Positions 11,501 through 40,127 of a stretch of DNA of 54,603 bases are shown here, one piece after another. The stretch is from Chiloscyllium plagiosum (lineage: Eukaryota), in the NCBI RefSeq assembly GCF_004010195.1, contig NC_057751.1, positions 3,068,379 through 3,122,981 of the forward strand. Reading direction: 5' to 3'. The notes under the pieces were generated by a model, which worked only from the letters and a program-made list of their open reading frames with translations, did not search any database and was not told the DNA's origin. Both the position numbers and the translations under genes were made by a program. Numbering within the stretch: position 1 is the first letter of the stretch; each line of letters starts with the position of its first letter.

Positions 11501-14500
11501 NNNNNNNNNNNNNNNNNNNNNNNNNNNNNNNNNNNNNNNNNNNNNNNNNNNNNNNNNNNNNNNNNNNNNNNNNNNNNNNNNNNNNNNNNNNNNNNNNNNN
11601 NNNNNNNNNNNNNNNNNNNNNNNNNNNNNNNNNNNNNNNNNNNNNNNNNNNNNNNNNNNNNNNNNNNNNNNNNNNNNNNNNNNNNNNNNNNNNNNNNNNN
11701 NNNNNNNNNNNNNNNNNNNNNNNNNNNNNNNNNNNNNNNNNNNNNNNNNNNNNNNNNNNNNNNNNNNNNNNNNNNNNNNNNNNNNNNNNNNNNNNNNNTC
11801 AGCACTGACCCTCTGACAGTGCGTCACTCCCTCAGCACTGACCCCCCGACAGTGCGTCACTCCCTCAGCACTGACCCTCCGACAGTGCGGCACTCCCTCA
11901 GCACTGACCCTCTGACAGTGCAGCACAACAGACACTCTGGCTGAGGAACCAAGGGCACCAATGGTAATACACACACACATACAGACACTCAGTTAAAAAT
12001 CACACAACACCAGCTTATAGTCCAACCGGTTTAATTAGAAGCACTAGCTTTCGGAGCAGTGCTCCTTCATCACTCAATTGTAGTGCTTCCAATTAAACCT
12101 GTTGGACTATAACCTGGTGTTGTGTGATTTTTATCTTTGTACACCCCAGTCCAACACCGGCATTTGCAAATACAGACACTCACACACACGCACATACAAA
12201 CACACACCCAGAGAGACACACATGCTCACATGACTCTCCTGCTTTCCATCTCCCTGGACAATCTCCTCTTAAGGATACCAGTTTAATTTTGGTTAAGATA
12301 TCAGCAGCTGAGCTCCCTGTTAATCTCACTTAATCTCTGCCATGAATTATGTCTCAGTGAGGCGAGGGGTTTGGAGCAAAGTGACTGCCTTTCACACTGC
12401 GAGCTGGAAATTTGAGCAGTGCCTGCTCTCAGTCCCCACACCTTGTTCAACCCTCATATTTCACTCAGTGACCATGCAACCAGAAGGAATTGCTCTCCCG
12501 TACCTGGTGGCATTGCAGGATGTGAGCTGCTGGCTGGTGTTAATTGATGAATTGATTGAATGACTCAATGGGATGGAGGAATAAGTGGTACTGGGGAGAT
12601 GGACAGTGGGGCGGGGGGAAGGGACTAAGCTGCGAGCCTGAGTTGTTGGTAAACTCGAACCAACAGGTTCGGTTCTGAGTTGGCTGTTTGGTTGATGTTG
12701 CTGCATTATTGCAAATTGACTTTGATCCTCTAATATCGCAGAGTGAAACACAGTACGGGCTGTTAAGCTCTCAGCTCTTTGTTAATCCCCTGGGAAGACC
12801 AGTCTCTCTCATCAGTTACAAGCAGTACACAGTGCAGACATTTCCTGCCTGTGCTTTCTTTAAGAGAGTGATGTTTCCATGTCCCTTCCTTGGCCCATGT
12901 GTTCTCAGTGGGTCACATTCCCAGCTAAGTTCATGGATCTTGAAAAATGTCCAGATTCCAGAGGAGGAAGTGGTGGATGTCTTGAAAAGCATAAAGATAG
13001 GTAAATCCCCAGAACCTGATCAGGTGTACCCTAGAACTCTGTAAGAAGCTAGAGAAGTGATTGCTGGGCCTCTTGCTCAGATATTTGTATCATTGATAGT
13101 CACAGTGAGGTGCCGGAAGACTGGAGATTGGCAAACGTGATGCCACTGTTTAAGAAGGGCGGTAAAGACAAGCCAGGAAACTACAGAGAGGTGAGCCTGA
13201 TGTCGGTGGTGAGTAAGTTGTTGGAGGGAATCCTGAGGGACAGGATGCACATGTATTTGGAAAGGCAAGGACTGATTTGGGATAGTCAACATGGCTTTGT
13301 GTGTGGGAAATCATGTCTCACAAACTTGATTTGAGTTATTTGAAGAAGTAACAAAGAGGATTGATGAGGGCAGAACAGTAGATGTGATCTATTGGGCTTC
13401 AGTCAGGTGTTCGACCAGGTTCCCCATGGGAGACTGGTGAGCAAGGTTAGATCTCACGGAATACAGTAAGAACTCGCCATTTAGATACAGAACTGGCTCA
13501 AAGGTAGAGGGTGGTGGTGGAGGGTTGTTTTTCAGACTGGAGGTCTGTGACCAGTGGAGTGCCACAAGGATCAGTGCTGGGTCCCATACATTTTGTCATT
13601 TATATAAATGATTTGGATGCGAGCATAAGAGGTACAGTTAGTAAGTTTACAGATGACACCAAAATTGGAGGTGCAGTGGACAGCAAAGAGGGTTACCTCA
13701 GATTACAACAGGATCTGGACCAGATGGGCCAATGGGCTGAGAAGTGGCAGATGGAGTTTAATTCAGATAAATGCAAGGTGCTGCATTTTGGAAACTTGAA
13801 AGGGTTCAGAAAAGATTTACAAGGATGTTGCCAGGGTTGGAGGATTTGAGCTATAGGGAGAGGCTGAACAGGCTGGGGCTGTTTTCCCTGGAGCGTCGGA
13901 GGCTGGGGGGTGACCTGAGAAAGGTTTATAAAATCATGAAGGGCATCGATAGGGTAAACAGACAAAGTCATTTTCCCAATTTGGGAGAGACCAAAATGCA
14001 AGGGGATAGGTTCAGGGTGAGAGGGAAAAGATTTCAAAGGGACCTAAGGGACAACTTTTTCATACAGAGGGTGGTACGTGTATGGAATGAGCTGCCAGAG
14101 GATGTGGTGGAGGCTGGTACAATGACAACTTTTAAAGGTATCTGGATGGGTATATGAGGAGGAAGGGTTTGGAGGGATATGGGACTAGATGAGATTGGTA
14201 TATTTGGTCGGCATGGATGAGTTGGACCGAATGATCTGTTTCCGTGCAGTACAGCTCTGTGACTCAGTAGGTGGTGCTCTCAGCTGGGTTCAGGGCTCCT
14301 GTCAGCAGACTTCCCTCCAGCCATGGAGTATCACCCCTCCACACAGGTCCCCAACTCCTGAAGAAGGGCTAATGCCCGAAACGTCGATTCTCCTGTTCCC
14401 TGGGTGCTGCCTGACCTGCTACACTTTTCCAGCAACACATTTTCAGCCCCAACTCTGTCTGCAGACTGACCACTGACATGGGGTAGATGTCATGGTTTCC

Positions 14501-23288: not shown

Positions 23289-26200
23289 GTCACCCTTCCT
23301 CACTGTCTGGAAGCTGACCAGGAGTCAGTGGCTGACAGAGGAACACTGTGATCCCGGCAGTGACAGTGTCTCTGGGTTAGGGGGTCACACACACTCGGTA
23401 AAGGCTGAGCAAAGGAATCAATGCCACCAAAGCTGCCTTGGCATAGCGCCACCCTTACTGTGGTGACACCTGGCCCACACAGCTGCACAGAAATATGGAT
23501 AAGCATCAGAGGCGGGCAGGCATTCCCCAGTGAGAGGCCATTCAGCCCTTCAAACTGGTTCTGACTGTCCCCCTGTGTTTGTGAACCCCTTTAAGCTTTG
23601 TGTGTGACCCGTGGGGCCTGGTGCAGGGGGAATGGATTTCAGACATTGTCAGATATCCTGCTCACTGTTTCTGACTGAGTTCCCTCTGCCCCAGGCTGGC
23701 TGCATTATTCCCAGGATATCAACAATCCCTGTGGAAAGTCCAATCCCAGCATTCTGTTCAGAGCAGAGAATCCCTGCAGTGTGGAAGCAGGCTATTCAGT
23801 CCATTGAGCCATACCAAAGAGCATCCCAGCCAGACCCACCCATGTAACCCTGCATTTCCCACGGCCAATCAACCCGAACCTGCACATCGTTAGACTGTGG
23901 GTGGAAACCCACACAGACACAGGGAGAATGTGCAAACTCCACACAGACCAACAGCCCAAGGCAGGGATTGAACCCAGGTCGTTGGCGCTGTGAGGCAGCA
24001 GCGTTAACCACTGAGCCACTGTGCCATCACCTTGGAGTCACGACACATTGATTCAAACCTCACAGCAACCTGGAAACGACCAGACTGTGGTCAGAACCCC
24101 ATCTGGTTCCCCCATGTCCTCCCAGGAAGGAACTCTGACCCGGTCTGGCCTACACGTGACTCCAGACCCACAGCAATGAGACTGACTCGACCCAGCCCAG
24201 CACACAGCTGAGTGTTTCAGGAAGACAGGGCATTGTGAGGGCTGGACAGTCAGCTGGGGTTCCGACAGAGGGAGTGTTACCTGTGTTAGTGTTGGCATGA
24301 GTGACCCAACTGTGTTTGTTCTCTCTCTCTCCCTCCCTCGCCCTCCCCCCCGGTAGTTGCTGTCAGAAGTGGAGGAAGTCTGAGCTGTGCCAACAGATAT
24401 TCGCACGGCGTGAAGCAACCCTGCTGAAGAATGTGCCCCCCAGTGCTCAGGGAGACACAGGTAAGGAGATGACAGGCCACAAAGCCTCACTTCCTGTCTG
24501 TCTTCACAGCCCTGAGCCAATGAGACACCTTAGTCCCCCTTGGTCTGAAGCTGGGACCCCTGGCCAACATTGTGGGCACTGGCAGTACGGGAGTGCCACA
24601 CTGTCACAGTGCCCAGTGGGATGGTAGGCTGATGCCCTGGCCCAGCCAGGATGGACAAGGGAGCAGGAGGAAGGGCTGAGACTTTCCCCTTCGCAATTAC
24701 GTCATGGTCCCCTTGTCTTCTGGGATCTTGCTGTGCATGCATAGTCTCCCTCCACTTCAACCAGGACCTAGCTGGCTGGAAAGCAAAAGTCCCGGTCTGT
24801 CAGGGTCACATTCCCAATGGGAGATCCCGGAGTCGGTCTGTCAGGGTCACATTCCCAATGGGAGAGTCCAGGGCTAGTCTGTCAGGGTCACATTCCCAAT
24901 GGGAGAGCCCAGAGTCGGTCTGTCAGGGTCACATTCCCAACGGGAGATCCGGAGTCGGTCTGTCAGGGTCACATTCCCAATGGGAGAGTCGGGGGCCAGT
25001 CTGTCAGGGTAACATTCCCAACGGGAGATCCCAGAGTCGGTCTGTCAGGGTCACATTCCCAATGGGAGATCCCGGAGTCGGTCTGTCAGGGTCACATTCC
25101 CAATGGGAGATCCCAGAGTCAGTCAGTCAGGGTCACATTCCCAATGGGAGAGTCGGGGGCCAGTCTGTAAGGGTAACATTCCCAACGGGAGATCCCGGAG
25201 TCGGTCTGCAAGGGTCACATTCCCAACGGGAGATCCCGGAGTCAGTCTGTCAGAGTCACATTCCCAATGGGAGAGCCCGGAGTCAGCCTGTCAGGGTCAC
25301 ATTGCCAATGGGAGATAGTGGAGTCAGTCTGTCAGGGTCACATTCCCAATGGGAGAGTCGTGGGCCAGTCTGTCAGGGTCACATTCCCAATGGGAGCATC
25401 CGAGGCCAGTCTGTCAGGGTCACATTCCCAATGGGAGATCCTGGAGTCGGTCTGTCAGGGTCACATTCCCAATGGGAGAGTCCGCGGCCAGTCTGTCAGG
25501 GTCACATTCCCAACGGGAGATCCCGGAGTCGGTCTGTCAGGGTCACATTCCCAATGGGAGAGTTGGGGGCCAGTCTGTCAGGGTCACATTCCCAATGGGA
25601 GATCCTGGAGTCGGTCTGTCAAGGTCACATTCCCAATGGGAGAGTCGGTGGCCAGTCTGTCAGGGTCACATTCCCAATGGGAGATCCCGGAGTCGGTCTG
25701 TCAGGGTCACTTTCCCAATGGGAGAGTCGAGGGCCAGTCTGTCAGGGTCACATTCCCAATGGGAGCGTCCGAGGCCAGTCTGTCAGGGTCACATTCCCAA
25801 TGGGAGATCCCGGAGTCGGTCTGTCAGGGTCACATTCCCAGTGGGAGAGTCCGCGGCCAGTCTGTCAGGGTCACATTCCCAATGGGAGAGTCGGGGGCCA
25901 GTCTGTCAGGGTCACATTCCCAATGGGAGATCCCAGAGTCGGTCTGTCAGGGTCACATTCCCAATGGGAGAGTCCGGGGCTAGTCTGTCAGGGCAACATT
26001 CCCAATGGGAGATCCCGGAGTCGGTCTGTCAGGGTCACATTCCCAATGGGAGATCCCGGAGTCAGTCTGTCAGGGTCACATTCCCAATGGGAGAGTCAGG
26101 GGCCAGTCTGTCAGGGTCACATTCCCAATGGGAGATCTCGGAGTCGGTCTGTCAGGGTCACATTCCCAACGGGAGGTCCCGGAGTCGGTCTGTCAGGGTC

Positions 26201-26887
26201 ACATTCCCAATGGGAGCTTCCGAGGCCAGTCTGTCAGGGTCACATTCCCAATGGGAGATCCTGGAATTGGTCTGTCAGGGTCACATTCCCAATGGGAGCT
26301 TCCGAGGCCAGTCTGTCAGGGTCACATTCCCAATGGGAGATCCTGGAGTCGGTCTGTCAGGGTCACATTCCCAATGGGAGAGTCCGCGGCCAGTCTGTCA
26401 GGGTCACATTCCCAACGGGAGAGTCGGGGGCCAGTCTGTCAGGGTCACATTCCCAATTGGAGATCCTGGAGTCGGTCTGTCAGGGTCACATTCCCAATGG
26501 GAGCGTCGTGGGCCAGTCTGTCAGGGTCACATTCCCAATGGCGGCGTCCGAGGCCAGTCTGTCAGGGTCACATTCCCAATGGGAGATCCTGGAGTCGGTC
26601 TGTCAGGGTCACATTCCCAATGGGAGAGTCCGCATCCAGTCTGTCAGGGTCACATTCCCAACGGGAGATCCCGTAGTCGGTCTATCAGGGTCACATTCCC
26701 AATGGAAGAGTCGAGGGCCAGTCTGTCAGGGTAACATTCCCAACGGGAGAGCCCGGAGTCGGTCTGTCCGTATCCCATTCCCAATGGTAGAGCCTGGGGT
26801 TGCTCTGTCATTGTCACATTCCTGAAGGTGGTGTTAATCTGATCTTCTCTCTCTCTGTCTCTCTCGGTGTCTCGGACAGGAGTATGA
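5536..26887 (+). CDS. TGFA: Protransforming growth factor alpha, complete 6-exon gene; join(5536..5575,15741..15794,21354..21471,22811..22960,24357..24460,26880..26887), 474 nt, 157 aa
   Basis: The spliced translation is [157 protein letters not shown]. It has a signal peptide, an NST sequon, a six-Cys EGF domain with the TGFA-specific [13 protein letters not shown] and [11 protein letters not shown], a TM helix and a terminal Val. All introns are GT-AG with compatible phases. Confidence 0.97.
6590..7030 (-). mobile_element. CR1 LINE 3' fragment
   Basis: [40 protein letters not shown] plus 3' UTR. Confidence 0.88.
7375..7485 (+). mobile_element. Short tRNA-derived SINE; a related copy lies at about 37800-37910
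   Basis: B box GGTTCAAGTCC; shares CCTCTGAGCCAGG..CTGCTCCAGAGG with the second copy, which carries the A box TGGTGCAGTGG. Confidence 0.55.
10916..11926 (+). repeat. 33-bp minisatellite (CAGCACTGACCCTCCGACAGTGCGGCACTCCCT)n spanning an assembly gap, in TGFA intron 1
   Basis: Tandem units visible on both sides of the N run. Confidence 0.95.
11346..11798. other. Assembly gap (453 N)
   Basis: Run of N. Confidence 1.
11991..12170. mobile_element. Penelope-derived short element in inverted (hairpin) arrangement
   Basis: 52-bp inverted arms at 11995-12046 and 12081-12132 (3 mismatches); same family as 30094-30224. Confidence 0.8.
12937..14265 (+). mobile_element. CR1 LINE ORF2 (RT domain) to 3' UTR, inactivated
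   Basis: [56 protein letters not shown]; contains stops, frameshifts and an internal deletion near 13794. Confidence 0.95.
14352..14445 (+). mobile_element. Penelope-derived short repeat with a hammerhead-like core
   Basis: CTGAAGA-A-GGGC-TAAT-GCCC-GAAACGTC followed by the family body ..GCTGCCTGACCTGCT..TTTTCCAGCA. Confidence 0.75.
15741..15794 (+). CDS. TGFA: TGFA exon 2 ([18 protein letters not shown]), 54 nt
   Basis: Polypyrimidine tract plus CTGCAG| acceptor, G|GTGAGT donor; contains the LENSTS motif of TGFA. Confidence 0.95.
16085..16330 (-). mobile_element. Penelope-derived short repeat fragments (two families), hammerhead-like core at 16256-16290
   Basis: Shared family motifs; the - strand reads CTGAAGA-A-GGGT-TCCA-ACCT-GAAACGTA. 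Confidence 0.65.
18035..18345 (+). mobile_element. tRNA-derived SINE family; other copies at about 24090-24185 (+), 31295-31385 (-), 43365-43630 (-) and 48995-49152 (-)
   Basis: Recurrent body CCATCTGGTTCA..CCTTACCTG.TCTGG.CTACATGTGACTCCAGACCC.CAGC and B-box-like GTTTGAATCCC in the 43.6 kb copy. Confidence 0.7.
18505..18862 (-). mobile_element. CR1 LINE 3' fragment
   Basis: Reverse complement matches 51460-51670 and other CR1 3' ends. Confidence 0.85.
19835..20095 (+). mobile_element. Degenerate CR1 3' end
   Basis: AGGGTTGTGAATCT..ATGGGCTGAATGG.CTCCT.CTCCT, as in 47181-47415. Confidence 0.65.
20490..20925 (+). mobile_element. CR1 LINE 3' fragment
   Basis: [20 protein letters not shown] plus 3' UTR. 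Confidence 0.85.
21354..21471 (+). CDS. TGFA: TGFA exon 3 ([40 protein letters not shown]), 118 nt
   Basis: CTGCAG| acceptor, GT|GTAAGT donor; first four EGF-domain cysteines and the N-terminal AAA|V cleavage site. Confidence 0.97.
22811..22960 (+). CDS. TGFA: TGFA exon 4 ([19 protein letters not shown]...TM helix), 150 nt
   Basis: TTGTAG| acceptor, CA|GTAAGT donor; last two EGF cysteines, LLA|VV shedding site and hydrophobic TM segment. Confidence 0.97.
23765..24026 (-). mobile_element. HE1-type SINE in TGFA intron 4
   Basis: The - strand begins GGCACAGTGGCTCAGTGG..GGGTTCAATCCC; homologous to 4340-4678. Confidence 0.85.
24357..24460 (+). CDS. TGFA: TGFA exon 5 (cytoplasmic tail HCCQKWRK...GDT), 104 nt
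   Basis: Long pyrimidine tract plus GGTAG| acceptor, CAG|GTAAGG donor; HCCQ and LLK align to the TGFA tail. Confidence 0.93.
24795..26828 (+). repeat. 41-bp minisatellite, 48 well-preserved plus 2 degenerate units, in TGFA intron 5
   Basis: 29-bp core GTCTGTCAGGGTCACATTCCCAATGGGAG plus a 12-bp variable part; period 41 holds throughout apart from one 1-nt deletion. Confidence 0.97.
26880..26887 (+). CDS. TGFA: TGFA terminal coding exon (8 nt, G-V-stop) followed by 3' UTR
   Basis: (CT)n pyrimidine tract plus GACAG| acceptor; completes GGA GTA TGA, giving the conserved C-terminal Val; followed by an AT-rich UTR and AATAAA. Confidence 0.88.
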
Positions 26888-27228
26888 AGAAAGCTGCTTT
26901 CCACCAAGTACAGGCATCCAGCTCTGAGCTCGCCAGTTTCCCCTCCGTATCCTGTCTGCTGTGCCTCAGCACTGGGACACACCACTCCTGTCTCACCTGC
27001 CGGTCAGCCAACGGAAAGCATCTTGTATATTGTGGAATTCTGCTGTTTATGTTTGTTTTTTGTTGTTGTGAATTAATTTATGGAAATATTGAAGTGAAGC
27101 CATCTCTCTGAGGAAGGGCAGAATGTAATTTATAGCTATTGAGACGTATCTGTGGGATTATTTGAATATTTAAGGATCAGAAAGGAACTCAAAAAGTTAT
27201 ATGTTAAACTATTTAAACTGAGACATGA

Positions 27229-27234
27229 AATAAA
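27229..27234 (+). terminator. Probable TGFA polyadenylation signal
   Basis: AATAAA about 340 nt after the stop, within AU-rich sequence and followed by T/GT-rich sequence. Confidence 0.6.
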
Positions 27235-27504
27235 AGTTTTTTTTATTTAAATCGACACGTTTCTGTTGCATGATGTCGAGTCACGAGCCATGCTCTGTTT
27301 ACAACAAACGGGAGACCCATCAGACAGTGGGGTCTCTGGGTTTGCCCATGTTTATTGTGTCATGACCCCCCCATGATCGTGGGATCTTGCTGTGCACCTT
27401 CAAGCTGTGGTCCTTCCCACAGTGACTCCACTTCAGAAACCCCATCACGACATGTTTGAACCGTACAGGGTGTGGGTGAGGCTGTGCCGGGAGTACAGAG
27501 CACT

Positions 27505-27585
27505 GTCGAGAATAGAGTGCTGCTGGAAAAGCACAGCAGGTCAGGCAGCATCCGAGGAGCAGGAAAACTGGTGTTTCAGGAACGG
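27505..27585 (-). mobile_element. Penelope-derived short repeat fragment
   Basis: GTGCTGCTGGAAAAGCACAGCAGGTCAGGCAGCATCCGAGGAGCAGG. Confidence 0.7.
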
Positions 27586-27589
27586 AGGC

Positions 27590-27970
27590 CTGTATGGAGT
27601 ACTGTTTCAGCCCCGTGTTTAATGAAGGATGTGCTGACACTGGACACAGTTCAAAACAGATTCACTCGGGTGATTTCTGCGACACGGGGGGTGATTCCTG
27701 GGACACGGGGGGTGATTCCTGGGACACGGGGGGTGATTCCTGGGACACGGGGTGACTTATTGAGGATGAGCCTTTCTTGATGAGTGTCTGGAAGAGTCTT
27801 CCTGAGAAATGTCAGACTGTGAGGGGGCCTGACAGGGGAGACCTTGAGAAGATGCTCCAGCAATGGGGGATGTTTTCAAACTGGGGACACAGGAGCAGGA
27901 TTAGGGGACTCTCTTTTAACCTGAGAGGCAAAAGGAATTTCATCTCTTAGGAGGGCAGTGAATGTCTGGA
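27590..27970 (+). mobile_element. Degenerate CR1 fragment containing a 21-bp tandem expansion
   Basis: KDVLTLDTVQNRFTRVI(PGTRGVI)n. Confidence 0.65.
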
Positions 27971-28014
27971 AGAAATTGCTGGAGAAGCTCCGCAGGTCTG
28001 TGAAGAGAAATCAG

Positions 28015-28052
28015 AGTTAACGTTTCGGGTCCGGTGACCCCTCCTCAGAACT
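28015..28052 (-). ncRNA. Putative minimal type I hammerhead ribozyme in a Penelope-derived repeat
   Basis: The - strand reads AGTT-CTGAGGA-G-GGGTC-ACCG-GACCC-GAA-ACGT-T-AACT: intact CUGANGA and GAAA boxes, 5-bp stem II, 4-bp stem I, palindromic ACGU in place of stem III. Confidence 0.65.
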
Positions 28053-28399
28053 GGCGGTCACGTGATGACAGATGGCACTGACTGAGGATCTCAGGACGTG
28101 GCGAGAGAACGTCCCCAAGGTGGGCATGTCTGGAAGAGATGTGGCAGTGAATCCTCTGCCCCAGACAGTTGGGGAGGCTAGAGCAATGTAAACCTTTCAA
28201 GAGGAGACCCACTGATCTCTGAAACATTGAGGAGCTGGTACCACAGCCCGGATCAGCAATGACCCTGGTGGGGGCAGGCATGACGGGCCGAATGGCCTAC
28301 TGCTCCTATTTCATCCGTTCTTGGAATGTCACATTGCAGATTTCCATCTGGGATTATGCCCCAGTTACAGCATCACGTTCAGTTCAGGTCACCACATTC

Positions 28400-28855
28400 C
28401 CAGAAGGATGTGGAGGCTTTGGAGAGGGAGAGGGTGTGAGCTGTAAGGAGAGGCTAGAAAAATGCAGGTTTTGTTTTCTCTGGAGAGGCAGAGGCTGACG
28501 GGAGACTTGGGAGAAGTCAATAAATTTGTGAGAGGCACAGATAGGGTCGGTGGTCAGGATCCTTTTCCCAGAGATGAAATGTCTAAAACCAGGGAGCATG
28601 CATTTAAGGTCAGAGGGGAAAGTTCAAAGAAGGTGTGAGGGGTAAGGTTTTAACACAGAGGGTGGAATATGCTGCCTGGGGTGGTGGAGGCAGTTCCGGT
28701 AGGGTTGTTGAAGAGATTTTTCGATGAGCACATGAATGTTGAAGGTATGGAGGGATATAGACCAAGGGCAGGCAGAAGGGATGAGTTTAATTTAGCTTCA
28801 TGTTCAGTACAGCGGTGTGGGCTGAAGGGCCTGTCCCTATGCTGTACAGTTCTGT
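28400..28855 (+). mobile_element. CR1 LINE 3' fragment
   Basis: Degenerate ORF2 end and 3' UTR (..GGGCTGAAGGGCCTGT.CCTATGCTGTAC). Confidence 0.8.
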
Positions 28856-30093
28856 GTAAGGTTGAGCTAGACAGGATTAGAAAGAGTGTTCACAGCACTG
28901 AGACCCCCTGATGTGGTGCTGATGGACACAGAGAAGGATTCACCATTCTGAAACCAGGCTCAACACTAGACTGTGCCTGGATCTTACCACCTGCACTGCT
29001 CTCTGCTGTGTTCCTTGCTGCCTCCCGGTCTCTGAATGAACCCCAACTCTTCAACGCCACAAACAATCACCATTCCCAGGGCGCATGGACATCACCTTCA
29101 GTGAATGTTCCTCCACTGTTCCCCTCGCCCAGCCTCCCATCCGGGGCTCCAGCTGAGGGTTCCATCCCGTGACCCAGCTGCTTCAGAGAGGCAGGCCCCT
29201 GGCTGTGGGACTGGAGTCACATGGAACCTGAGACTGGGTTCCAACAGCAGTGACTGATCAAGGTAGTTCCCCTGTTAGCTGGCAGCTCTGGGGTGACCCA
29301 GTCACTGAGGAAACCACGTTAGTGCTGTGTGACAGCAGAGGTATCATCATCTTCCTCCCTGCCCTGGCTCAGCACTGCACTGCTGACTCCCAGTCTCCCA
29401 GCTTCCCCCGATCTCCCAGAAGCCGATGTCCCCGAAGGAGAGGAGGAGGCACAACTCCTGTCTGGCTCGACACTGCAGGGAGGTCCTTGTGTCGCAGGAA
29501 AAGACTGGAGTCCCCTCGTCTCCCCTCACCCCTGTGAAGTCAGATTCAACAACAATCCCAGAAGAGGGGGGGGGAGAGAAAGGACTGTCTGGTCTCTGTG
29601 TGTGAAACGGACAGGAGCATCTGCTGTAAAGTTGGTGTGTAAAAACGGTGACATTGTAAAGTGGGGAGAGGCATTGCGTGGTCCCTTTAAAGGTGGTGTT
29701 CTTTTCGGTGCTCAGAGTTAAGATGGATGTCTGAGCAGGGGTTTAAATCCCAAGTGTACACAGAGAGTGCCCACACTGAAACATTTTATATCAAACAGCC
29801 AAGCAGCACTTTTACCAGAACAACAAGGGTTTTCGAATTGAGTCCATTAACATAAACCAAGCCCTTACATACTGAAAGCCAATCAAATTTACATCTGATG
29901 GTGTTGACAACCTTGAACCAATTGGATTGTAAAGAAATCAAGAGGTAATCCAGGATATAAAAGATGCAGGCATTTGGAAAATTGGGGGAGAGCCAACTGT
30001 TACCTGAAGAGGTAAGAACATCCCAGCTCTCAGGGAGACAGTTCTCTCTCTGTTCCTGAAGGTACCTGCCCCTCTGACACAATCTTCCTGACA

Positions 30094-30224
30094 TGATTTG
30101 GAGATGTCGGTGTTGGACTGGGGTGGACAAAGTTAAAAATCACACAACACCAGGTTAGAGTCCAACAGGTTTAATTGGAAGCACTAGCTTTCGGAGCGAC
30201 GCTCCTTCGTCAGGTGGTTGCGTG
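30094..30224 (-). mobile_element. 131-bp Penelope-derived element with hammerhead core and a 15-bp target-site duplication
   Basis: ACAATCTTCCTGACA at 30079-30093 and 30225-30239; body nearly identical to the 12.0-12.2 kb copy. Confidence 0.85.
30182..30216 (-). ncRNA. Putative minimal type I hammerhead ribozyme
   Basis: The - strand reads CAC-CTGACGA-A-GGAGC-GTC-GCTCC-GAA-AGCT-A-GTG. Confidence 0.65.
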
Positions 30225-31524
30225 ACAATCTTCCTGACAACTGAATACAGTGGAGAGAAATGTTCAGAACAGAGGAAATTACCCAGGAAACATCCCTGAC
30301 AGCAGATTCAGAGACAGGAGCAGATCAGAAGAGCTTTGAGAGACAAAGTATTAATTTATTGTTTTTTTATATAAATGGAAGTGGTATTTACTTAAACAGC
30401 GTCCTGTTACAATCTTGTTTTATTCAGGAATAGGTAGTTACAGAGGGATGGTTCGGTTTGTTAGTAATCCTGTTAATTTGTTCATTGTTGGAATTAGGTA
30501 AATAGATTGTGACTTGTTGATTAGAGAGTGAGTGAAAGGATTTCATTTCATTTCATCACTCCTTGATAACATTGGGGGACAGGTAATGTTCATTCTCAGA
30601 CTTCAGTATCAGACAGTATCAGATGAAGTGAGTGTCTCTGGGTGTCTTGGTGTTCATTATCAAAGGGGAATCAACCTCTGCTCTGTTACACATTGAAGCT
30701 GACAACATCAGGAATACTGCAGATGCTGAAAACCTGAAACAAACACACACACACACACAGAGCTGGAGAAACTCAGGAGGTCTCGCAGCTTCTGTGTGGA
30801 GCGAGAGAGGGAGAGAGATCACGGATCCTGCCCTGAACTCCCAGGGAAGCCCCTGTCAGAGCTTCCCTTTCCTGTTCCCAGCCCTCCCCCCCCCCGCTGC
30901 TCTGTAACTCCCTGCCATTCCTCACCATCAGGCTGGGAGAAGGGAAAGTTGTCCAATCGGAGCAGGTGGGGCTGAGCTGTATTTGCCTGACCTTTCAGTG
31001 AGACAGGAATTTCCATTCCTGAGCGGGCGCCTCTCTGTGTTTACACCCTGCAGCTACCTGCGGAGTGAGCTCATTCATTCCAGCGTCCTGACGAGATCTC
31101 ATCAGCTCAGTGTGGCCTCAAGGCTTCAGGTTGCCACAAAAAATTCCCATCTGCTTCCTCACCAAAGTCTCGCCTTCTGATGTTGTTTCCCTTCTGCATG
31201 TGAACCTGGGGCCCCTCAGTGACTGGGACAGGTTTGGTTGTCCATCCTCAGTTGACCTGCACTCGAGTGATTTGCTTGGGCCATTGCAGGGGGACAGTAT
31301 AGAATGAACCTCATTGCTGTGGGTTTGGAGTCACCAGGTAAACATGGCACCCTTCCTTCCCTGAAGGACATGGGTGACCCAGGCGAGTTGTACCCAAGAG
31401 ATGTGAGACCTGAATTGGCAGGGTATTAGAGATTAAGCTGACTCCAGATGGTGAAAGGAATGGACATGCTAAATCAAGAGGAACTCTTTGCTCTTCAGAA
31501 GGTTGGGAGGGGGGTCACTTAAAC

Positions 31525-31950
31525 CCATAGAGATATATAACTCAGAAAAAGACCTTTCACTCCAACCCATCCATGCTGACCAGATATCCCAACCTAATCT
31601 CATCCCACCTGCCAGCACCCGGCCCGTATCGCTCCAAACCCTTCCTATTCATATACTCATCCAATGTTGCAATTGTACCAGCCTCCACCACTTCCTCTGG
31701 CAGGTCATTCTATACACCACCCTCTGCGTGAAAAAGTTGCCCCTTTGGTCTCTTATATCTTTTCTCGTCTCACCTTAAACCTATGCCTTCTAGTTCTGGA
31801 CTCCCTCACCCCTGGGAAAAAAACTTTGTCTATTTATCCTATCCATGTCCCTCATAATTTTGTAAACCTCTATAAGGTCACCCCTCAGCCTCCGATCCTC
31901 CAGGGAAAACAGCCCTCAGCCTGTTCAGCATCTCCCTGTCACTCAAACCC
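31525..31950 (-). mobile_element. CR1 LINE 3' fragment
   Basis: Close relative of 6590-7030. Confidence 0.87.
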
Positions 31951-32859
31951 ATTCAACACTCCTTTGTTGTTTGGATTTGCAGGTTCATACTCCCTCCCAC
32001 CCAATGTCTTTCTCCCCGGTCTCCAGGACCGCTTGGTGCTGTGGGATTTATCCTTCTCCCTGGAGAGAGCGTGGGTTTTCTCTGGAATATCATGGCCCCG
32101 TGTATGTGTCCTGTCCAAACAGCAGGTGTATGTGTGCACATTGATGTCAATCCAGACCCTGGCTGCGTTGCCTGTCACGTGAGAGTTGGGAAGGAATCAC
32201 ACCCAGAGCTTGTGAGACCTACACAGTGAGCTCTCGGTACAGGTCGCACCTCGGCCTATACCGAGGGAGACAGTTTGGGGCTCAACATTTCAGCGGCAGA
32301 GGTACAGGGTCCAGGAGCATGGGCCCAACTGGTTGGTGCACTCAAAGGGCTGGGATGAAGGGCCTCCCCACACACACACAGAGTCAGACACAGAGTAAGA
32401 TCCCAACAGCTGCAACATGATGAAAGTCACATAATGCCTCTTGCTTACAAACTTTCCGGCTGTGGAGATGACAAAGCATGATTCATTCTGAAATGAATAT
32501 TGTATAAAGTGTTGCCTGTGGGCAGGGAGTGGAGGGAGGAGAGTGAGTGTGGGTGGAGTCAGCCGTTGGAAGCTCAGTGTTTGCGGATTGTGAACAGATG
32601 GTGCCCTCGCTGTGGCTGGGAGGGAGGGAGGGGGGAGCTGAGGAAAGCCATGGTGTGGGTTTGCCTGAGGCAGGATGTGAGCTCTGCTGGTCACCACAAC
32701 GGGCAAGGGAACCTGCTCCAGCTGCAGTGACCCAGCCCACAGCCAGCCATTGGGAAATGGCTTTTCCCAGAAGCCTAGCTCAAGGCCCATGATACAACAG
32801 GAAGCCAAGAAAGGAAAAGAAAACAGCAGCTTCCAATGAACTGGAACAACCTGAAATCT

Positions 32860-33240
32860 GACCACAGGCATCCACTCCCTCCAGCACCGACGCTCAGTAG
32901 CAGCAGTGTGCACCATCTACAAGATACACTGCAGTAATTCACCAAAGATCCTCAGGCAGCACTTTCCAAACTGGAAGGACAAGGGGCAGCAGATACATGG
33001 GAACACCACCCCCTGCAAGTTCCCCTGAGCCCCTCCCCATCCTGACTTGGAAATCTCTCACCATTCCTTCACTGTCACTGGGTCAGAATCCTGGAATTCC
33101 CTCCCTCAGGGCATTGTGGATCTACCCACAGCACATGGACCGCAGCGGTTCACGAAGGAAGCTCACCCCCACCTTCACTTGGGGCAACTAGGGACGGGGT
33201 AATAAATGCTGGGCTCAGCCAGTGACCCCCACGTCCCGTT
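32860..33240 (+). mobile_element. 3' end of the second CR1/L2-group LINE family
   Basis: IHSLQHRRSVAAVCTIYKIHC..SWNSLP..; tail GGGCAACTAGGGA.GGG.AATAAATGCTGG. Confidence 0.78.
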
Positions 33241-34879
33241 ATGAGATGGGAGAGGAATGCCCCTCGAATAACAGGATGGATGTCCTTGCGGAATACAGGG
33301 CGGTTCTGGTCAGGTCCCTGGCTGAAGTTCACTCCTCAGCCAAACAAGGTGTCAATAACCAACACAGTCTTTGTCCCAGGGCCTGCCTGTGGGATCTTGT
33401 GTCTGAGACATAGCAGCGAGCGAGCGGACTCTGAGTGTTGCTGGTGGTTGTGAAATCTTGCAGCCTGCCCTGAGGTTTGTGGTGACGGAGGGGGGGGATG
33501 GGGGGGGGGGGAGTGTGAATAACAGGCACAGTCAAAAGGAAGGGCTTCCTGTCTCCATTTCAGACTTTCCAATTAAGGGCATCTGCCCGGGAGGAGGAAG
33601 GAGATTGTGGTTTGTTTGGAAAGAGTGATGGTTTGTGTGTGTGTGTGTGTGTGTGGGTGCTTCCCCCTCACAGAGCCCAGTTCCTGCCTTCCTGTCCCAG
33701 ATGTGACACAGAGGAAGTCACCATTTCCAATTCACCAGAAAGCTTCCCAATCCGGGGCGTGGTTATCCATCATCCAATCAGAGTCTTTACGAAAAAGCTG
33801 GCTACCTGAAAAGGGGCCATGGATCTTTCAAATCCCCATCCCATTCAGCATTTCCTCCGGGCCACGGCCAGACAGGGAGCTCGGGATCCACTCGCTTGGC
33901 CAAGGTCAAGTACGAGACTGATGTGGCCTCCCTGCAATGAGTCGTGGGTCTCACTCTATCGCCCTTTCGGAGACACCCTCTGGGTGTCAGACCCAGAGGA
34001 AGAGTTCAGAAAACGTTAATGTTCCCATCACATTCAGCTCCACCCACCGTGCCAATGTCTCTCAGTCTGTGGGAGCAACAACAGGTAGCTCAGCGAGAGG
34101 TTCCCATGGAGATGGAGGGGTCCTGCCTGGCTCCTGGTCATCACACTGAAATAGTTCCTGTTCCTTGTCCTCCCTGGCTGGGTCAGCCCAACATCCTGTT
34201 CCTCTCCCACACACTGGGGGACGGCTCTGTCTCTGCAGCACCAGCTTATCCCATGATCAGGCCTGCCCACTGACAGAGAGCATGGCAGGCGCAAGAGCCC
34301 AGCAGGCAGCCAGACTTCCACTCGATGCTGATGTGACTCCATACAGAGCCTATCCATGCTCCAGTCTGGAGCTTTCCTTTGGGAATGATGGGAATCAGGA
34401 TCTTACCCACAATCCTGCAGGGCACGGTCACCCAGAGCTTCATAGGAGGAACAGTGAGGCCTTCGGCCCGATCCCAGCTCTCCGCAGGCCCAGGGCCACC
34501 ATCTGAGTGAGTGAGTGTGTGTGTGTGAGAGTGGGTCTCCCCATCAATGGCACCATAACAGACCGCTTGCATTGCTGTTAGTGGGATCCTGCTGTGTTTG
34601 ACACTGCTGGCCATAGGGCAATGGTGGGGCATCCTGACCTCTCCTCTCTCTCTCTGTCTGTCTCTCTCGGTCACGGTGAGGGCTCGAGGTGGGGAACAGG
34701 GGAGGTGGGGGGAGGTCCCTTCCTACAGACCTCAGTGTGGGAGAGTCGGGGAGTTATTTGGGATGAGAGGGGTGGTTGGAAAGGACAGGAATCACCCTTG
34801 AGAGAGAGGGACCCAGGGGGAATAGGATGGTGCCACTCACTGTCGACATGCCCCAGGGATATGGCCATACAGATGAGGC

Positions 34880-35310
34880 AAAAGTGAGGACTGCAGATGC
34901 TGGAAATCAGAGTCCAGATTATAGTGGTGCTGGAAAAGCACAGCAGGTCAGGTAACATCCGAGGAGCAGGAAAATTGACGTTTTGGGCAAAAGCCCTTCC
35001 AGCACCACTCAAATTTTTATCTCTCCCTGCATTCAGTCCTGCTGTAGACTATGTCTATATGGAGACAGAGAGACACTGACACACTCACACTCTCTCTCAC
35101 TCACTCACATACACACACACAAACAGAGACATATCTTTACTGAAATATCAGCTCATATTCCTTCTGTTGTTTCTACCAAATATCTTCATCATTTCTGAGG
35201 AAGGGTCACTCGCTCTGAGACATTAACTCTGATTTCTCTCCACTGACCGTGCTGGAGCTGTGGAGACTTTCCAACAATTTCTGTTTTTCTTTCTCATTTC
35301 CAGCATCCGA
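34880..35310. mobile_element. Penelope-derived repeat fragments (34880-35008 on -, 35193-35310 on +)
   Basis: Family motifs with decayed hammerhead cores (AGGGCTTTTGCCCAAAACGTC; CTGAGGAAGGGTCACTCG). Confidence 0.65.
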
Positions 35311-36019
35311 AGGTTTTTTTTTTGGAATGTTTACCAATCAGTCCGTTAACGTGGCCACGGGAAAACTGCAAGTCAGGAACTCTGAGAAAGCTGATCTCCT
35401 GTGGCCCCCTGTGTTTTCAGGAGGAGATTGGTTCTGTCTGTCATTGTGGATACACACGGAAACCACAGTTCATTTTCTCAGCTCTCTGTGTCCCTGGGCA
35501 GAGAGAGTCAAACAGACATCACAGTCTGCACTTTCACTCACAGCCCTCAATGCAAAACTGGTGGAACTGAGCCCCTGGTAAGAGTGATGAGATTTATCTG
35601 ACACCCTTCATGTGATCCACCCGACTTAGCAGGGAACACAGGGATCCGCTTGATGGATTGATGGCTGGTCAGATGCTCTCGCTGTCACACGGTGGGTCAG
35701 TGGGTGCTGCCCTCTGACCCCTCACACACCCAGTCCCTTGCCTGTGGTGGGGGCAGTGGGAGATCTGGCCATGGGCTGACTGTTGGGAGCAGTCACTCAT
35801 CACGCAGTGTTCACTTGGTGCTCTCTCAGACGGTCTGAAGAGCTGCAACATCTCCATCCAGTCCGGGGGGAGATAGCAGCTGGCCCCACGGGCTGAATGG
35901 CCATCCTGACTCCTGCTCCTTCCAGGGTGAATTGATTCCAGAGAATCTGCAGTGTTTTATCAGTTTTCCCCACACAGTTCTCCAGGTGGAGTTGGTGCAG
36001 ACTGAAGGGGGAATCCTCT

Positions 36020-37195
36020 CACATACGTGGCACTGTCATGATAAGGGCCCATGGTGTCTAGCATGGGCAGATGATTGGCTGGCTGGCAGGAAGCAGAGAC
36101 TGGGGACACAAGGGTTTTTCTCAGGATGGCAGCCGGTGACAAGTATGGTTCTGCTGGGTTAGTGTTGGGACCACAACTTCTCACTTTATACATTAACCAT
36201 CTTGATGAAGGAACTGAGGGCATTCTGGCTATGTTTACAGATGATACAAAGATAGGTAGAGGGAAGGCTGCATTGAGGAGGCGGGGAAGCTGCAGAAGGA
36301 TGTGGACAGGTTAGGACAGTGGGCAAAGAAGTGGCAGATGGAGTACAACGTGGGTAAGTGTGAGGTCATGCACTTTGGTCAGAAGGACAGAGGCATGGAC
36401 TATCTTCTAAATGGGGAGAAAATGCAGAAGTCTGAGGTGCAAAGAGACTTGGGAGTTCCAGTCCAGGATTCTGTCAAGGAAACTTGCAGGTTGAGTCAGT
36501 AGTTATGAAGGCAAATGTAATGATGGCATTTATTTTGAGAGGACATGAATATAAAAGCAGGGATGTACTTCTGAGGCTCTATCAGGTTCTGATCAGACCA
36601 CATTTGGAGGATTGTGGGCAGTTTTGGGCCCCATATCTCAGGAAGGATGGACTGGCCCTGGAGCGTGTACAGAGGAGGTTCATGAGACTGGTCCGAGGAA
36701 TGAAAAGCTGGAATACAAGGACCCTGGGGTCGATAACCGATGTTGAGAAGGATGAGGCCCCACTGATTGATTCTACTCAATGGAATTCAGAAGGATGAGG
36801 CGGGGGGGGGGGGATCTAATTGAAACATACAGCATCCTGAATGGCCTGGACAGAGTGGATGTTGGGAAGATGTTTCCACTGGGAGGAGAGACAAGGACCT
36901 GAGGGCACAGCCTTAGAGTAAAGGGAACACCTTTCAGAACAGAGATAAGGAAAAACTTCTTCAGCCAGAGAATGTGGAGTCTATGGAATTCTCTCCCTCA
37001 GAGGCTGTGGGGGGCCAGGTCATCGAGTATATTTAAGACAGAGATAGATGGGTTCATGAGTAAGTAGGGGATCAAGGGTTACAGGGAGACAGCGGGAGAA
37101 TGAGTTTGAGAAACTTATCAACTGTGATTGAATGGCAGAGCAGACACAATGGGCTGAATGACCTCATTTTTTGCTGCTGTGGTTTTCTGGTCTTA
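36020..37195 (+). mobile_element. CR1 LINE ORF2 3' half and 3' UTR, inactivated
   Basis: [64 protein letters not shown]. Confidence 0.93.
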
Positions 37196-37909
37196 CGGAT
37201 TCTCGAGGAGAGACCACTCCAGGACAGAATGCTGAGCTGTCAGAAGGTGTGACCCAGACTCTGCTGTGTGTGGCAGGACACACAGGAATGGAGAGTGAAG
37301 ATTAAAATCGCAACCGCCACAGTCTCACAGAACAGCCCAGCAGGCTGGAGGGGCAGAGTGGCCTGTTCCAGATTGTGTCAGTGAGTGTGTGAGAGAGACA
37401 GGGAGCTGGAGCCAGGGCAACTTCACCCACATGAAATTCTGCAGAGAATGGCCACAGCCCAATTGTGCACAGCAGGATCCCAGAACGATTCAATCATTTG
37501 TGCCTGTCACATGACCGGGCAACTGACCAATCAAAAACAAGTGCATTTCTGAGCTCCTCTGATAGGCACTGCTTCAGAAACCCCAACGAAACCATTGGCT
37601 GGGGCAGGAAATCCATCAATCCCCCAATCAATAACAAGCTGCATTGAGTTAGCACCAGCTCAGTGATGGGTTTGAACAGGTTTTGGAAACAGCGGGTGAT
37701 GAAAAGATGGAATGGTGATGTGGTGATGGGCAAAATCACATCAGTTGCGTGTCAGACCATGTCCACATCTAACAAGAAATAAAGTTGGCTCTTAGGCTCA
37801 CGTGGTGCAGTGGTAGTGACCCTGCCTCTGAGCCAGGGCATGTGTTCAATTGTCATCTGCTCCAGAGGGTGCACCATTACATCTCTAGGCAGCCTGGTTG
37901 GGAAATATC

Positions 37910-38215
37910 TTGGTGCTGGACATGAGTGAACATCCCCACCTCTGACCTTCAGATGGAGGGAAGGTCATTGATGAAGCAGCTGAAGATGGTTGGGCCTAGG
38001 ACCCTACGCTGAGGAACTCCTGCAGAGATGTCCTGGAGCTGAGAGGACAGACCTCCAACAACCAGATCCATCTTCCTCTGTGTCGGGTATAACTCCAGAC
38101 AGTGGAGAGTTTGTCCCAAATACACATCGATTCCAGTTTGGTTGGGACTCTGTGATGCCACACTTGGTCAAATGTGGCTTTACTGTCAAGGATGGTCACT
38201 GTCCCTCCCTGATTG
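37910..38215 (-). mobile_element. RT-domain fragment of a CR1/L2-group LINE
   Basis: LDSKATFDQVWH..KLESM, DISAGVPQ..VLGPTIFSCFINDLPSI. Confidence 0.85.
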
Positions 38216-39203
38216 GGCACTGCCAGCTTCTGCCATGTCCTCTCTGATCATGCCAACAGCCAACCTTCAACTCCCGTTGGTAATAGCTGCTGATTTGGTC
38301 ATTGCTTCATGGCTCTGTGTGATCAGGTGTGTGTGGGATCTTGCTGTGTATTGATTGCCCCCTGCATTTCCCCCTTGGGACTGGCCTTCAGTGATGGTGA
38401 GGCTGTTGAGGAGCATTGTGCAGGAAGGTCCATGGTCAGGGCTGGTGAGAGTCCCATTGGGTTTGAGGAGCTCACGCAGCTGTGTGGGGGGGGGGGTGTC
38501 AGCTATCAGCTCAGACACACAGAGACCAAGCACCCCCACCCCTAGCCGTGACCCCACAGTTAGAAGCAGCTACAATCTCTGGGCCATCAGAGACCACAGC
38601 AAAGTGAGACCCTGCACACCAGTCAATGGGCCACAGCCCTGTCACCCTGCCCTCTTTCCCTCATTGCTTTTCACCAGCACTGGGGTTACCCATTCCAAAC
38701 CCTGGGTCCAACCAGGCTTTCAATTGGTGGAGGTCAGCCACCATGTGGGGAAACCTCCCTGGATCTGTCCAACCAGAGCCTGCAAAGCCCAAGAAACATC
38801 TGAGCATGTGCAGATGGTGAGCTCTCATTAGTTGGATTGGGTACCTGACCTGACTGGAGTGGAAGCTCACTTTCACCACCAGGATAAAGTGGATGCTGAG
38901 TTCTGACAGTGACCACCCTGTTGGGGGAGAGCATTCGGAATGGTTGTTCCTTGGTAAGTGAACCTGTCTCACTGAGCATTGCCACAAGTTGCCAGGTAAG
39001 ATAGGGTGGGGATTGAGCGAGCTCGGTGTGTTATATTTGTTGGAAAATCCCATTTCCATGTTTTAGTGAGGACTGTTCCCTGGAAAGGGTCACGTGACCT
39101 TGTGTGTGTGTGTGTGTGTGTATATGACAGTTGGCTGTGGACTGAGCTGGGACATGGCTCGATGTAGGTTTGAGCTGGTGTGGCCCTGGTTGGTGTTTCA
39201 GTC

Positions 39204-39600
39204 TCAAACATCGACTGCTCCTGGAGGACCATGAACTCGGTGGAAGATGCTCTTTGGTCTACCCGAGACGTGTTGGCTGTCCAGAGCGTGAAGTTGGCCC
39301 TGACTGAGTGTTACAGACTGAGACATCCCAAGGTCTAGGAACGAAGGGACCCACTGAATCCTGGGGCAGCTGTCCCAGTGCAGTGGGGGAAGACCACTGT
39401 CTGAGGCCTTTCTACTGAAGGGGGCCTGTTCCATCACCAGACCCTCTCAGTGTCTCACATTTGTACAAATCGTCATATTGTATGTGTAATGCAGGTCATC
39501 GGTCTGTTTGGACACAGGCAAACTGCAATGTTTGGATGCTTCACTTAAAATGCAATGTCCAGAACCGAACTGCTTTAGTGACAAAGAGAAGATTTGCAAT
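39204..39600 (+). mobile_element. Tx1-like (L1 clade) non-LTR element, 3' end remnant
   Basis: NIDCSWRTMNSVEDALWSTRDVL..TECYRLRHPKV*..QWGKTTV* (39204-39404) resembles, from memory, the C-terminus of Tx1-type ORF2. Confidence 0.6.
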
Positions 39601-39739
39601 AGTTTCCATTTTGGAAATGAAAACCAAGTGGTTGAAGTGTTTTCCCCTCCTGACCCACCAGTCTCCAAAACCCAGAGGACAGCCACTCCCTCCAGACACC
39701 CTCCCCCCCCCCCCCCCCAACCCACACCCCACACGCTGA

Positions 39740-40020: not shown

Positions 40021-40021
40021 T

Positions 40022-40127
40022 CCTCAGCACTGAGCCCCCGACAGTGCGGCGCTGCCTCAGCACTGAGCCCCCGACAGTGCGGCGCTGCCTCAGCACTGAC
40101 CCTCCGACAGTGCGGCGCTGCCTCAGC
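40022..40127 (+). repeat. Three-unit copy of the 33-bp minisatellite
   Basis: (CCTCAGCACTGAGCCCCCGACAGTGCGGCGCTG)x3. Confidence 0.92.

What the first reader, a model, noticed from the sequence alone, without database searches (positions are those of the whole stretch)
30079..30239. A 131-bp hammerhead-carrying element with a perfect 15-bp target-site duplication
Seen: ACAATCTTCCTGACA flanks both sides of a non-coding insert. Near its 5' end on the - strand the insert folds as CAC/CUGACGA-A/GGAGC-GUC-GCUCC/GAA-AGCU-A|GUG, with both conserved hammerhead boxes, a 5-bp stem II, a 3-bp stem I and a CUA cleavage triplet. Stem III is reduced to the palindrome AGCU. Established: Penelope-like retroelements carry such minimal hammerheads, proposed to act as dimers. 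Inference: this is a discrete, recently mobilised non-autonomous ribozyme retroelement (retrozyme or SINE-like unit).
Basis: partly seen in the sequence, partly recalled or inferred. Interest (0 to 1): 0.7.

Follow-up and report, generated by a model that had tools for sequence, protein, structure and literature searches.

The report
Old Penelope retrotransposon end-stub with hammerhead
The 131-base insert, its 15-base flanking duplication and its miniature self-cutting-RNA motif are real, but it is likely the cut-off end of a very common Penelope-type jumping gene, is also present at the same spot in a second species (so not a fresh jump), and its one less-described feature is a polyadenylation signal just behind the motif that is used in RNA from this family.

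Summary
Observation confirmed: exact 15-bp direct repeat (30079-30093, 30225-30239) around a 131-bp insert with a textbook minimal hammerhead on the - strand. Interpretation only partly supported. The insert belongs to a very abundant family (47,837-69,568 contigs laid per DNA run) with the marks of Penelope-like element (PLE) ends: two preferred 3' ends about 37 nt apart (the optional tail), dispersed 5' ends, and a second copy in this window as a head-to-head pair with a one-sided tail and 13-bp duplication. It is not recent: a second organism carries both junctions, with 2 substitutions in its right repeat, and a third (8% diverged flank) enters the left junction. It is not a retrozyme: one ribozyme, no tandem unit, cut site 40 nt inside. 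Catalytic G12 is mutated in 12-14% of family depth, like other CpGs. Side result: 1,621 of 3,075 family RNA reads carry poly(T) 10-15 nt after an A(A/U)UAAA placed 9 nt behind the predicted cut. The scan had noted this kind of stub, and this signal, on other DNA before. Known kind; low interest.

The parts
30079..30093 (.). left copy of the target-site duplication (15 bp; the last 1-2 letters may be element-derived)
   Evidence: family 3' ends at 30092-30094
30094..30224 (-). 131-bp insert: likely 5'-truncated pLTR end of a Penelope-like element
30094..30130 (-). optional 'tail', about 37 nt between the long (30092-30094) and short (30129-30132) family 3' ends
   Evidence: loose-end piles; second locus arms end at positions equal to 30096 and 30131
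30135..30152 (-). GU/U-rich stretch, predicted downstream element of the poly(A) signal
   Evidence: sequence; inference from standard 3'-end processing
30155..30160 (-). poly(A) addition sites seen in RNA of family copies (not shown for this locus)
   Evidence: poly(T) loose ends before 30155, 30159, 30160 in 636, 833, 152 reads of run X21
30170..30175 (-). poly(A) hexamer AUUAAA (AAUAAA in 25-49% of family depth through 30174 A>T)
30182..30216 (-). minimal type I hammerhead: 3-bp stem I, CUGACGA, bulged A, 5-bp stem II, GAA, palindromic AGCU, predicted cut between 30185 and 30184
30221..30224 (-). 5' junction: 4 letters that depart from the family, which goes on with other letters; likely truncation point with filler
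   Evidence: loose ends behind 30220
30225..30239 (.). right copy of the target-site duplication; 2 substitutions in organism B
11979..12182 (.). second insertion of the same family: head-to-head pair (11991-12072 inverted, no tail; 12081-12171 with tail) inside a 13-bp duplication

Best explanation
The insert is likely a dead, 5'-truncated end (solo pseudo-LTR with tail) of an endonuclease-bearing Penelope-like retrotransposon, and it is also present at this site in a second organism. Shown: duplication, hammerhead anatomy, family abundance, two 3' ends, head-to-head copy, presence in organism B, poly(A) use in family RNA. Inferred mechanism: the PLE protein (RT plus GIY-YIG) nicked the two target strands 13-15 bp apart, began reverse transcription internally at the downstream 'tail' site of an unprocessed RNA that ran past both the poly(A) site and the uncut hammerhead, stopped after about 130 nt just beyond the ribozyme, and repair made the duplication. 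The hammerhead is a passenger: alone it cannot form stem III and it would need a second copy (dimer) and perhaps the PLE protein to cut; dispersed copies decay neutrally. In the parent element the ribozyme would cut about 26 nt upstream of the poly(A) site.
For: Family size: 62,485, 47,837, 62,847, 69,568 contigs laid on 901 bp and 60,224, 59,036 on 251 bp, depth concentrated on the insert; only 7-9% are 99% alike or more. Two preferred 3' ends about 37 nt apart with heterogeneous AT-rich flanks (agreement 0.34-0.37), as for the 30-40-bp PLE tail (PMC8557442, PMC3846280) and the two internal RT start sites of Poseidon (PMC11167929). Second locus: head-to-head pair, tail on one side, 13-bp duplication; 14 of 30 shown DNA joints... 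see full report for the opposite-strand joints. Hammerhead matches the min-HHR consensus of PMC4209133. The same 30-letter core pattern lies about 750 nt downstream of a GIY-YIG-like ORF with a CX3CxxC linker in L002, with an RT fragment in L001. No A-tail; both 3' ends lie 28 and 65 nt beyond the poly(A) site. Age: organism B contigs 29700-30115 and 30191-30541; organism C contig 29702-30119 with 33 substitutions in 409 letters. G12 mutated in 14.4% and 12.5% of depth against 12-15% at the CpG 30197/30198. Polyadenylated reads run through the cut without a step (2,063 to 2,003).
Against: The autonomous parent in the same host was not found: no genome was available, tblastn of 4 PLE proteins against the window gave nothing below E 0.2, and L001/L002 come from another organism, were picked by the pattern itself, and resemble the target only weakly downstream of it (60 of 2,000 shuffles reach the score). 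The empty site was not seen (no 30093-30240 joint in the 15 of 72 rows shown). The left junctions reach only 22-26 letters into the insert, below the tool's 31-letter rule; only organism B's right junction (34 letters) passes. A pile of family ends near 30216-30220 shows some preference for stopping in front of the ribozyme, which simple random truncation does not explain.
Confidence: 0.8

Rival explanations
1. A dedicated non-autonomous unit (SINE-like or retrozyme monomer) with its own master loci, mobilised in trans by a PLE.
For: Very high abundance and uniform 3' ends; a pile of 5' ends near 30220 (106-198 contigs a run where shown); non-autonomous PLE derivatives and retrozyme monomers are described (PMC8557442; 10.64898/2026.07.22.740005); a few 'goes back' joints exist in DNA contigs.
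Against: No tandem unit at this locus; one ribozyme with the cut 40 nt inside the 5' end, so the insert is not a cut-to-cut unit; the window's other two arms start at other places (positions equal to 30212 and 30186); no tRNA, 5S or 7SL head in Rfam; no A-tail; not recent.
Confidence: 0.1
2. A strong-stop-like product: RT starts at the 5'-proximal copy of the internal start site on a pLTR-initiated transcript and runs off the RNA's natural 5' end (a start site just before the ribozyme, or the ribozyme cut), so stubs of this size are made afresh but with a preferred length.
For: 5' ends pile just upstream of the CUGA box with near-background agreement beyond a few letters (0.39-0.44); in the second locus one arm starts at U4 and the other 2 nt before the predicted cut; PLE transcripts start in the upstream pLTR (PMC6765202 passage) and Poseidon RT starts 111-118 nt into the ORF (PMC11167929).
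Against: The 30220 pile is partly an artefact of this copy departing from the family there; it holds under a tenth of the contigs at the long 3' end; no pile of RNA starts or ends was reported (table 6 empty); no transcription start was mapped.
Confidence: 0.08
3. The 15-mers are a chance or pre-existing repeat and the insert is not a clean transposition product.
For: No empty site was observed.
Against: Expected number 0.005 in the window; the repeat abuts the family's standard 3' end exactly; the second copy has its own 13-bp duplication.
Confidence: 0.02

Closest known systems
Insertions of EN+ Penelope-like elements: 5'-truncated and solo pLTRs, inverted copy, 30-40-bp tail, TSD (PMC8557442, PMC3846280; Neptune-type by the relative's linker)
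   Same: Optional tail of about 37 nt, head-to-head copies with the tail on one side, TSDs, hammerhead near the 3' end, heavy 5' truncation.
   Different: TSDs here are 13-15 bp against 8-10 bp in the Adineta passages; the autonomous ORF of this family was not found; clade is inferred only from a relative in another organism.
[quoted passage not shown]
   Same: Both core boxes, unpaired base between 9 and 10.1, G10.1-C11.1, palindromic 15.2-16.2, no stem III as monomer, mostly single dispersed copies.
   Different: Stem I only 3 bp and stem II 5 bp (shorter than the Schistosoma families described); activity not tested here; a used poly(A) signal directly behind the cut is not mentioned in the parts read.
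Poseidon of Anolis (PAc; PMC11167929)
   Same: Two preferred 3' ends defining a tail; insertion from unprocessed RNA without need of ribozyme cleavage; no RNA reads piling at the cut.
   Different: In PAc the ORF starts at stem II; here the ATG in the family's majority CUGAUGA frame meets a stop after 8 codons (read from the sequence), and the relative's ribozyme lies in a 3' UTR.
Metazoan non-LTR retrozymes (PMC7229834; 10.64898/2026.07.22.740005)
   Same: Non-coding, type I hammerhead, TSD longer than 4 bp, PLE-related.
   Different: Retrozymes are tandem units with a ribozyme in each, usually canonical, giving circular RNAs; this is a single stub with a minimal ribozyme and no tandem partner.
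Clec2 3' UTR hammerhead (review passage, PMC6765202)
   Same: Cut site lies upstream of the poly(A) signal, so cleavage would remove the tail.
   Different: That is a split, host-domesticated ribozyme with shown activity; here it is a transposon end, cleavage is untested and copies decay neutrally.

Membership tests
EN+ Penelope-like element end (solo pLTR) | minimal hammerhead near the 3' end | tested here: met
   against PMC4209133
EN+ Penelope-like element end (solo pLTR) | optional 30-40-bp tail (two 3' ends) | tested here: met
   loose-end piles at 30092-30094 and 30129-30132; second locus
EN+ Penelope-like element end (solo pLTR) | inverted 5'-truncated adjacent copies in the family | tested here: met
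   11991-12171; opposite-strand joints in 8 of 15 and 14 of 15 shown rows minus the 2 others, see full report
EN+ Penelope-like element end (solo pLTR) | target-site duplication, no poly(A) tail | tested here: met
EN+ Penelope-like element end (solo pLTR) | continuity with an RT + GIY-YIG ORF of the same family in the same host | tested here: inconclusive
   no genome, no hit in the window; only a relative from another organism
Non-LTR retrozyme | tandem units, each with a hammerhead | tested here: not met
   single copy at this locus; other loci not surveyed
Non-LTR retrozyme | canonical type I hammerhead with full stem I | tested here: not met
   3-bp stem I, no stem III; no Rfam hit
Non-LTR retrozyme | circular RNA of unit length | tested here: inconclusive
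   no RNA 'goes back' joint in the 15 of 49 rows shown, but the library is poly(A)-primed and would miss circles
Non-LTR retrozyme | self-cleavage as monomer or dimer | not testable with these tools
   needs in vitro assay; the nearest-neighbour model does not favour the active dimer (-17.7 against -33.5 kcal/mol)
SINE | Pol III head derived from tRNA, 5S or 7SL | tested here: inconclusive
   no such Rfam match at E up to 10; A and B boxes were not scanned separately
SINE | 3' poly(A) or simple-repeat tail | tested here: not met
   insert ends in the family tail and abuts the duplication

The most novel reading that the evidence does not exclude
This PLE family couples a hammerhead to its own poly(A) signal: the ribozyme cuts 9 nt before the hexamer, so dimer- or protein-triggered cleavage strips the poly(A) tail from tandem PLE transcripts, while single scattered stubs cannot cut and instead give the host tens of thousands of portable poly(A) cassettes; the stubs themselves are strong-stop cDNAs that run off an RNA 5' end just in front of the ribozyme.
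Probability: 0.2. Interest if true: 0.55.

Novelty: new member of a known kind. Interest (0 to 1): 0.2.

Why it matters
As a locus it matters little: one fixed, probably inert stub among a very large number. The family-level side result could matter: the role of PLE hammerheads is stated to be unclear (PMC8557442), and a used poly(A) site about 26 nt behind the predicted cut gives a concrete, testable function (tail removal from tandem transcripts) and implies that transposition uses read-through RNA. It also warns that a perfect 15-bp duplication is weak evidence of youth: at 3-8% pair divergence it stays perfect with probability 0.66-0.29.

Tried and rejected
Whole-genome survey: no genome held. 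Rfam: no hammerhead hit. Pattern scans: 0 in viral contigs, 0 in prokaryote genomes, 2 in metagenomes. Folding z-scores of the insert are not significant (-1.64 and weaker), and the active dimer is not the lowest-energy cofold: no support for activity, weak evidence either way. Empty site: not seen in the joints shown (15 of 72; 15 of 49); the bases next to the site are at single-copy depth at 88% likeness, so no close host-repeat copies could be used. The right flank 30227-30257 has no cover in the three organism-A runs and 30238-30290 none in the second organism-C run: holes, no evidence. No listed RNA holder of the 1.4-kb stretch; run X21 has no read on the flanks and X22 laid none, so expression of this locus is not shown. 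Cleavage in vivo: no step at the cut, but the 3' product (about 26 nt plus tail) would be too short to be laid, so this is no test. Host gene: Pfam scans of 246 stop-to-stop frames (150 of 151 listed for 27,000-41,700, both strands; 96 of 96 for 1-27,000, minus strand) gave no hit above a curated cut-off; gene context stays open. Enrichment of A15.1 and A17 changes in RNA against DNA (7.8% against 0.2-0.3%; 10.8% against 0.5-2.4%) may reflect a few expressed loci and was not used.

Full report
1. Observation. The 15-mer ACAATCTTCCTGACA is exact at 30079-30093 and 30225-30239 and encloses 131 bp. It is the only non-simple exact repeat of 15 or more letters at spacing 100-200 outside the tandem arrays, where 0.005 are expected. 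On the - strand the hammerhead numbering is complete: CUGACGA (30213-30207), unpaired A, stem II GGAGC/GCUCC with G10.1-C11.1, GAA, AGCU, A17, predicted cut between 30185 and 30184, stem I CAC/GUG. This fits the min-HHR consensus of Cervera and de la Pena (PMC4209133, parts 1-2 of 4 read). Four such motifs lie in the window against 0.47 in Markov controls; Rfam finds none.

2. It belongs to a very large family. No genome was held, so I laid assembled contigs of public runs on the site. On 29700-30600, 62,485 (X1, organism A), 47,837 (X2, A), 62,847 (X9, B) and 69,568 (X18, C) contigs were laid, with summed depth of 10^5 to 10^7 on the insert against about 5-90 on the bases beside it; on 30040-30290, 60,224 (X5, A) and 59,036 (X20, C). 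The tool warns that summed depth is no copy number; the contig counts alone show many thousands of variants. Only 7-9% are 99% alike or more. This copy differs from the majority at 30107, 30158 and 30209 (87-97% of depth has the other letter). The host looks like a shark by its repeats; that is my recall and the wording of earlier scan notes, not something I tested.

3. Its ends are those of a Penelope-like element. In DNA, loose ends pile at 30092-30094 (840+876+554 contigs in X5, 757+778+416 in X20) with unrelated AT-rich flanks (agreement 0.35-0.36), and again at 30129-30132 (182-350 a run where shown) (24 of 1,207 and 18 of 543 rows shown). These are two 3' ends about 37 nt apart, the optional 30-40-bp tail of PLEs (PMC8557442 and PMC3846280, passages), which in Anolis Poseidon is the stretch between two internal RT start sites (PMC11167929, parts 1-2 of 4). 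A pile at 30109 marks a subfamily with another tail. The 5' side is looser: the top pile, at 30220, has 106-198 contigs where shown and continues with family letters that this copy lacks, so this copy is cut short with about 4 foreign letters. A second insertion at 11979-12182 is the textbook PLE layout: an inverted arm ending at the short 3' end, a forward arm ending in the tail, and a 13-bp duplication. Opposite-strand joints inside the insert make up 8 of 15 joints shown and 13 of 15. A 30-letter pattern of the ribozyme found 2 metagenome contigs. In L002 it lies about 750 nt downstream of, and in the same sense as, an ORF 44-47% identical to two PLE-like proteins (one has RVT_1 at 5.6e-08, the other a weak GIY-YIG at 0.0086), with a CX3CxxC linker as described for Neptune and Nematis; L001 joins the same 3' UTR head-to-head to an RT fragment (RVT_1, 1.4e-05). 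This relative is from another organism and was picked by the pattern; downstream likeness is weak (60 of 2,000 shuffles), though it too has AATAAA shortly after the cut. The host's own autonomous element was not found.

4. It is not recent. In organism B one contig covers 29700-30115 (11 substitutions) and another 30191-30541 (18 substitutions; 34 letters in the insert), with 30227 A>C and 30238 C>T inside the right repeat. In organism C a contig covers 29702-30119 with 33 substitutions and 13 gap letters in 409. The left-junction overlaps (22-26 letters) fall below the tool's 31-letter rule, and the second C run did not cover the flanks, so B is solid and C is likely. A 15-mer pair stays identical with probability 0.66 to 0.29 at 2.7 to 8% divergence, so perfection does not mean youth. 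No empty site was seen in the rows shown.

5. The ribozyme in dispersed copies. The family majority keeps both boxes; high-frequency variation sits in loop II (30199, 30200) and N7 (30209), as expected if master elements were under selection. Among copies, G12 is mutated in 14.4% and 12.5% of depth and C11.1 in 18%, against 12-15% at CpG 30197/30198 and 14-23% at CpG 30108/30109 (40 of 63 rows shown, copies under 85% likeness excluded): neutral CpG decay after insertion. Single min-HHRs did not cleave and dimers cleaved poorly in PMC4209133; the Poseidon ribozyme needed protein and was dispensable for insertion in PMC11167929; 1 of 9 Xenopus dimers cleaved in 10.64898/2026.07.22.740005 (parts 1-3 of 5 read). 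The dimer paper of Lunse et al. was not held; I saw only a review's passage (PMC6765202).

6. A used poly(A) signal. In raw poly(A)-primed single-cell reads of organism A (X21, about 2 in 100 of the run read), 3,075 reads were laid; 636, 833 and 152 of them (1,621, 53%) carry poly(T) before 30155, 30159 and 30160, and depth of first mates on + jumps from 549 to 1,838 there while the other direction stays at 451 to 440. So ribozyme-sense RNAs end 10-15 nt after AUUAAA or AAUAAA (30175-30170), ahead of a GU/U-rich stretch. The next 20 letters hold 1-3 A, so internal priming on the element is unlikely; the T run is partly primer, one sample only, and copies truncated beside genomic A runs are not fully excluded, though no DNA pile at that place is among the rows shown. 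The reads come from other copies (10 of 3,075 are 99% alike; none on the flanks) and run through the cut without a step (2,063 to 2,003). X22 laid no read. Inference: since both DNA 3' ends lie 28 and 65 nt beyond the poly(A) site, the templates of insertion were read-through RNAs, which fits internal initiation and not SINE-like A-tail priming. Searches for this arrangement in print (listings only; no 'polyadenyl' in PMC8557442, PMC7229834, PMC3846280 or PMC2377424) found no description; subscription journals and supplements were not searched.

7. Mechanism and rivals. Best reading (0.8): a PLE protein nicked the target with a 13-15-bp stagger, primed internally at the tail end, stopped after about 130 nt, and left a single inert stub that became fixed before A and B split. 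Nicking, priming and stopping are inferred from the literature; anatomy, abundance, sharing and poly(A) use are shown. Rivals: a dedicated SINE-like or retrozyme unit (0.1); a strong-stop product running off a natural RNA 5' end (0.08); chance repeat (0.02). Retrozyme membership fails on tandem units and on a canonical ribozyme (definitions from PMC7229834, passages, and the 2026 preprint).

8. Earlier notes. I stated my reading before opening them. A word search gave 66 findings in at least 17 genomes, and the 8 shown reach the same verdict of Penelope end-stubs; two notes from this genome already mention a used poly(A) signal behind the ribozyme. They are AI notes and count as no support; they show that the scan has met this kind often.

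9. Verdict. Real feature, new member of a known kind, interest 0.2. The boldest open reading, a ribozyme and poly(A) switch with strong-stop stubs, has probability 0.2 and would deserve 0.55.

Noticed in passing
window 11979-12182: Second insertion of the same family, head-to-head with one-sided tail and 13-bp duplication; one arm starts at U4 of the CUGA box, the other 2 nt before the predicted cut.
   Followed up: yes
window 14358 (+), 28048 (-), 16286 (-), 2002 (+, degenerate): Other minimal hammerhead motifs with different stem II, apparently other repeat families; the 14358 family has 6 further copies in the window.
   Followed up: partly
window 30065 (run X2, contig 17): A contig of organism A aligns 29700-30065 with a 17-letter gap and leaves 24 letters unaligned after 30065: perhaps another allele near the site. 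The right flank 30227-30257 has no cover in any of three organism-A runs.
   Followed up: no
window 30181-30184: Family variants: a 2-letter insertion behind 30181 (466 of 2,433 RNA reads, about 4-6% of DNA depth) and a loose end behind 30184 that repeats the ribozyme half; both touch stem I near the cut.
   Followed up: no
window 24795-26822: Tandem array of 41-bp units, 49.5 copies, with long open frames that follow from the repeat.
   Followed up: no
window 10918-11921 and 40022-40131: 33-bp minisatellite at two places, one spanning an assembly gap.
   Followed up: no
L001 1-1050, L002 1-1470: Metagenome contigs of a Neptune-type PLE with head-to-head junctions and a hammerhead core matching the target's 30-letter pattern, followed by AATAAA; host unknown.
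   Followed up: partly
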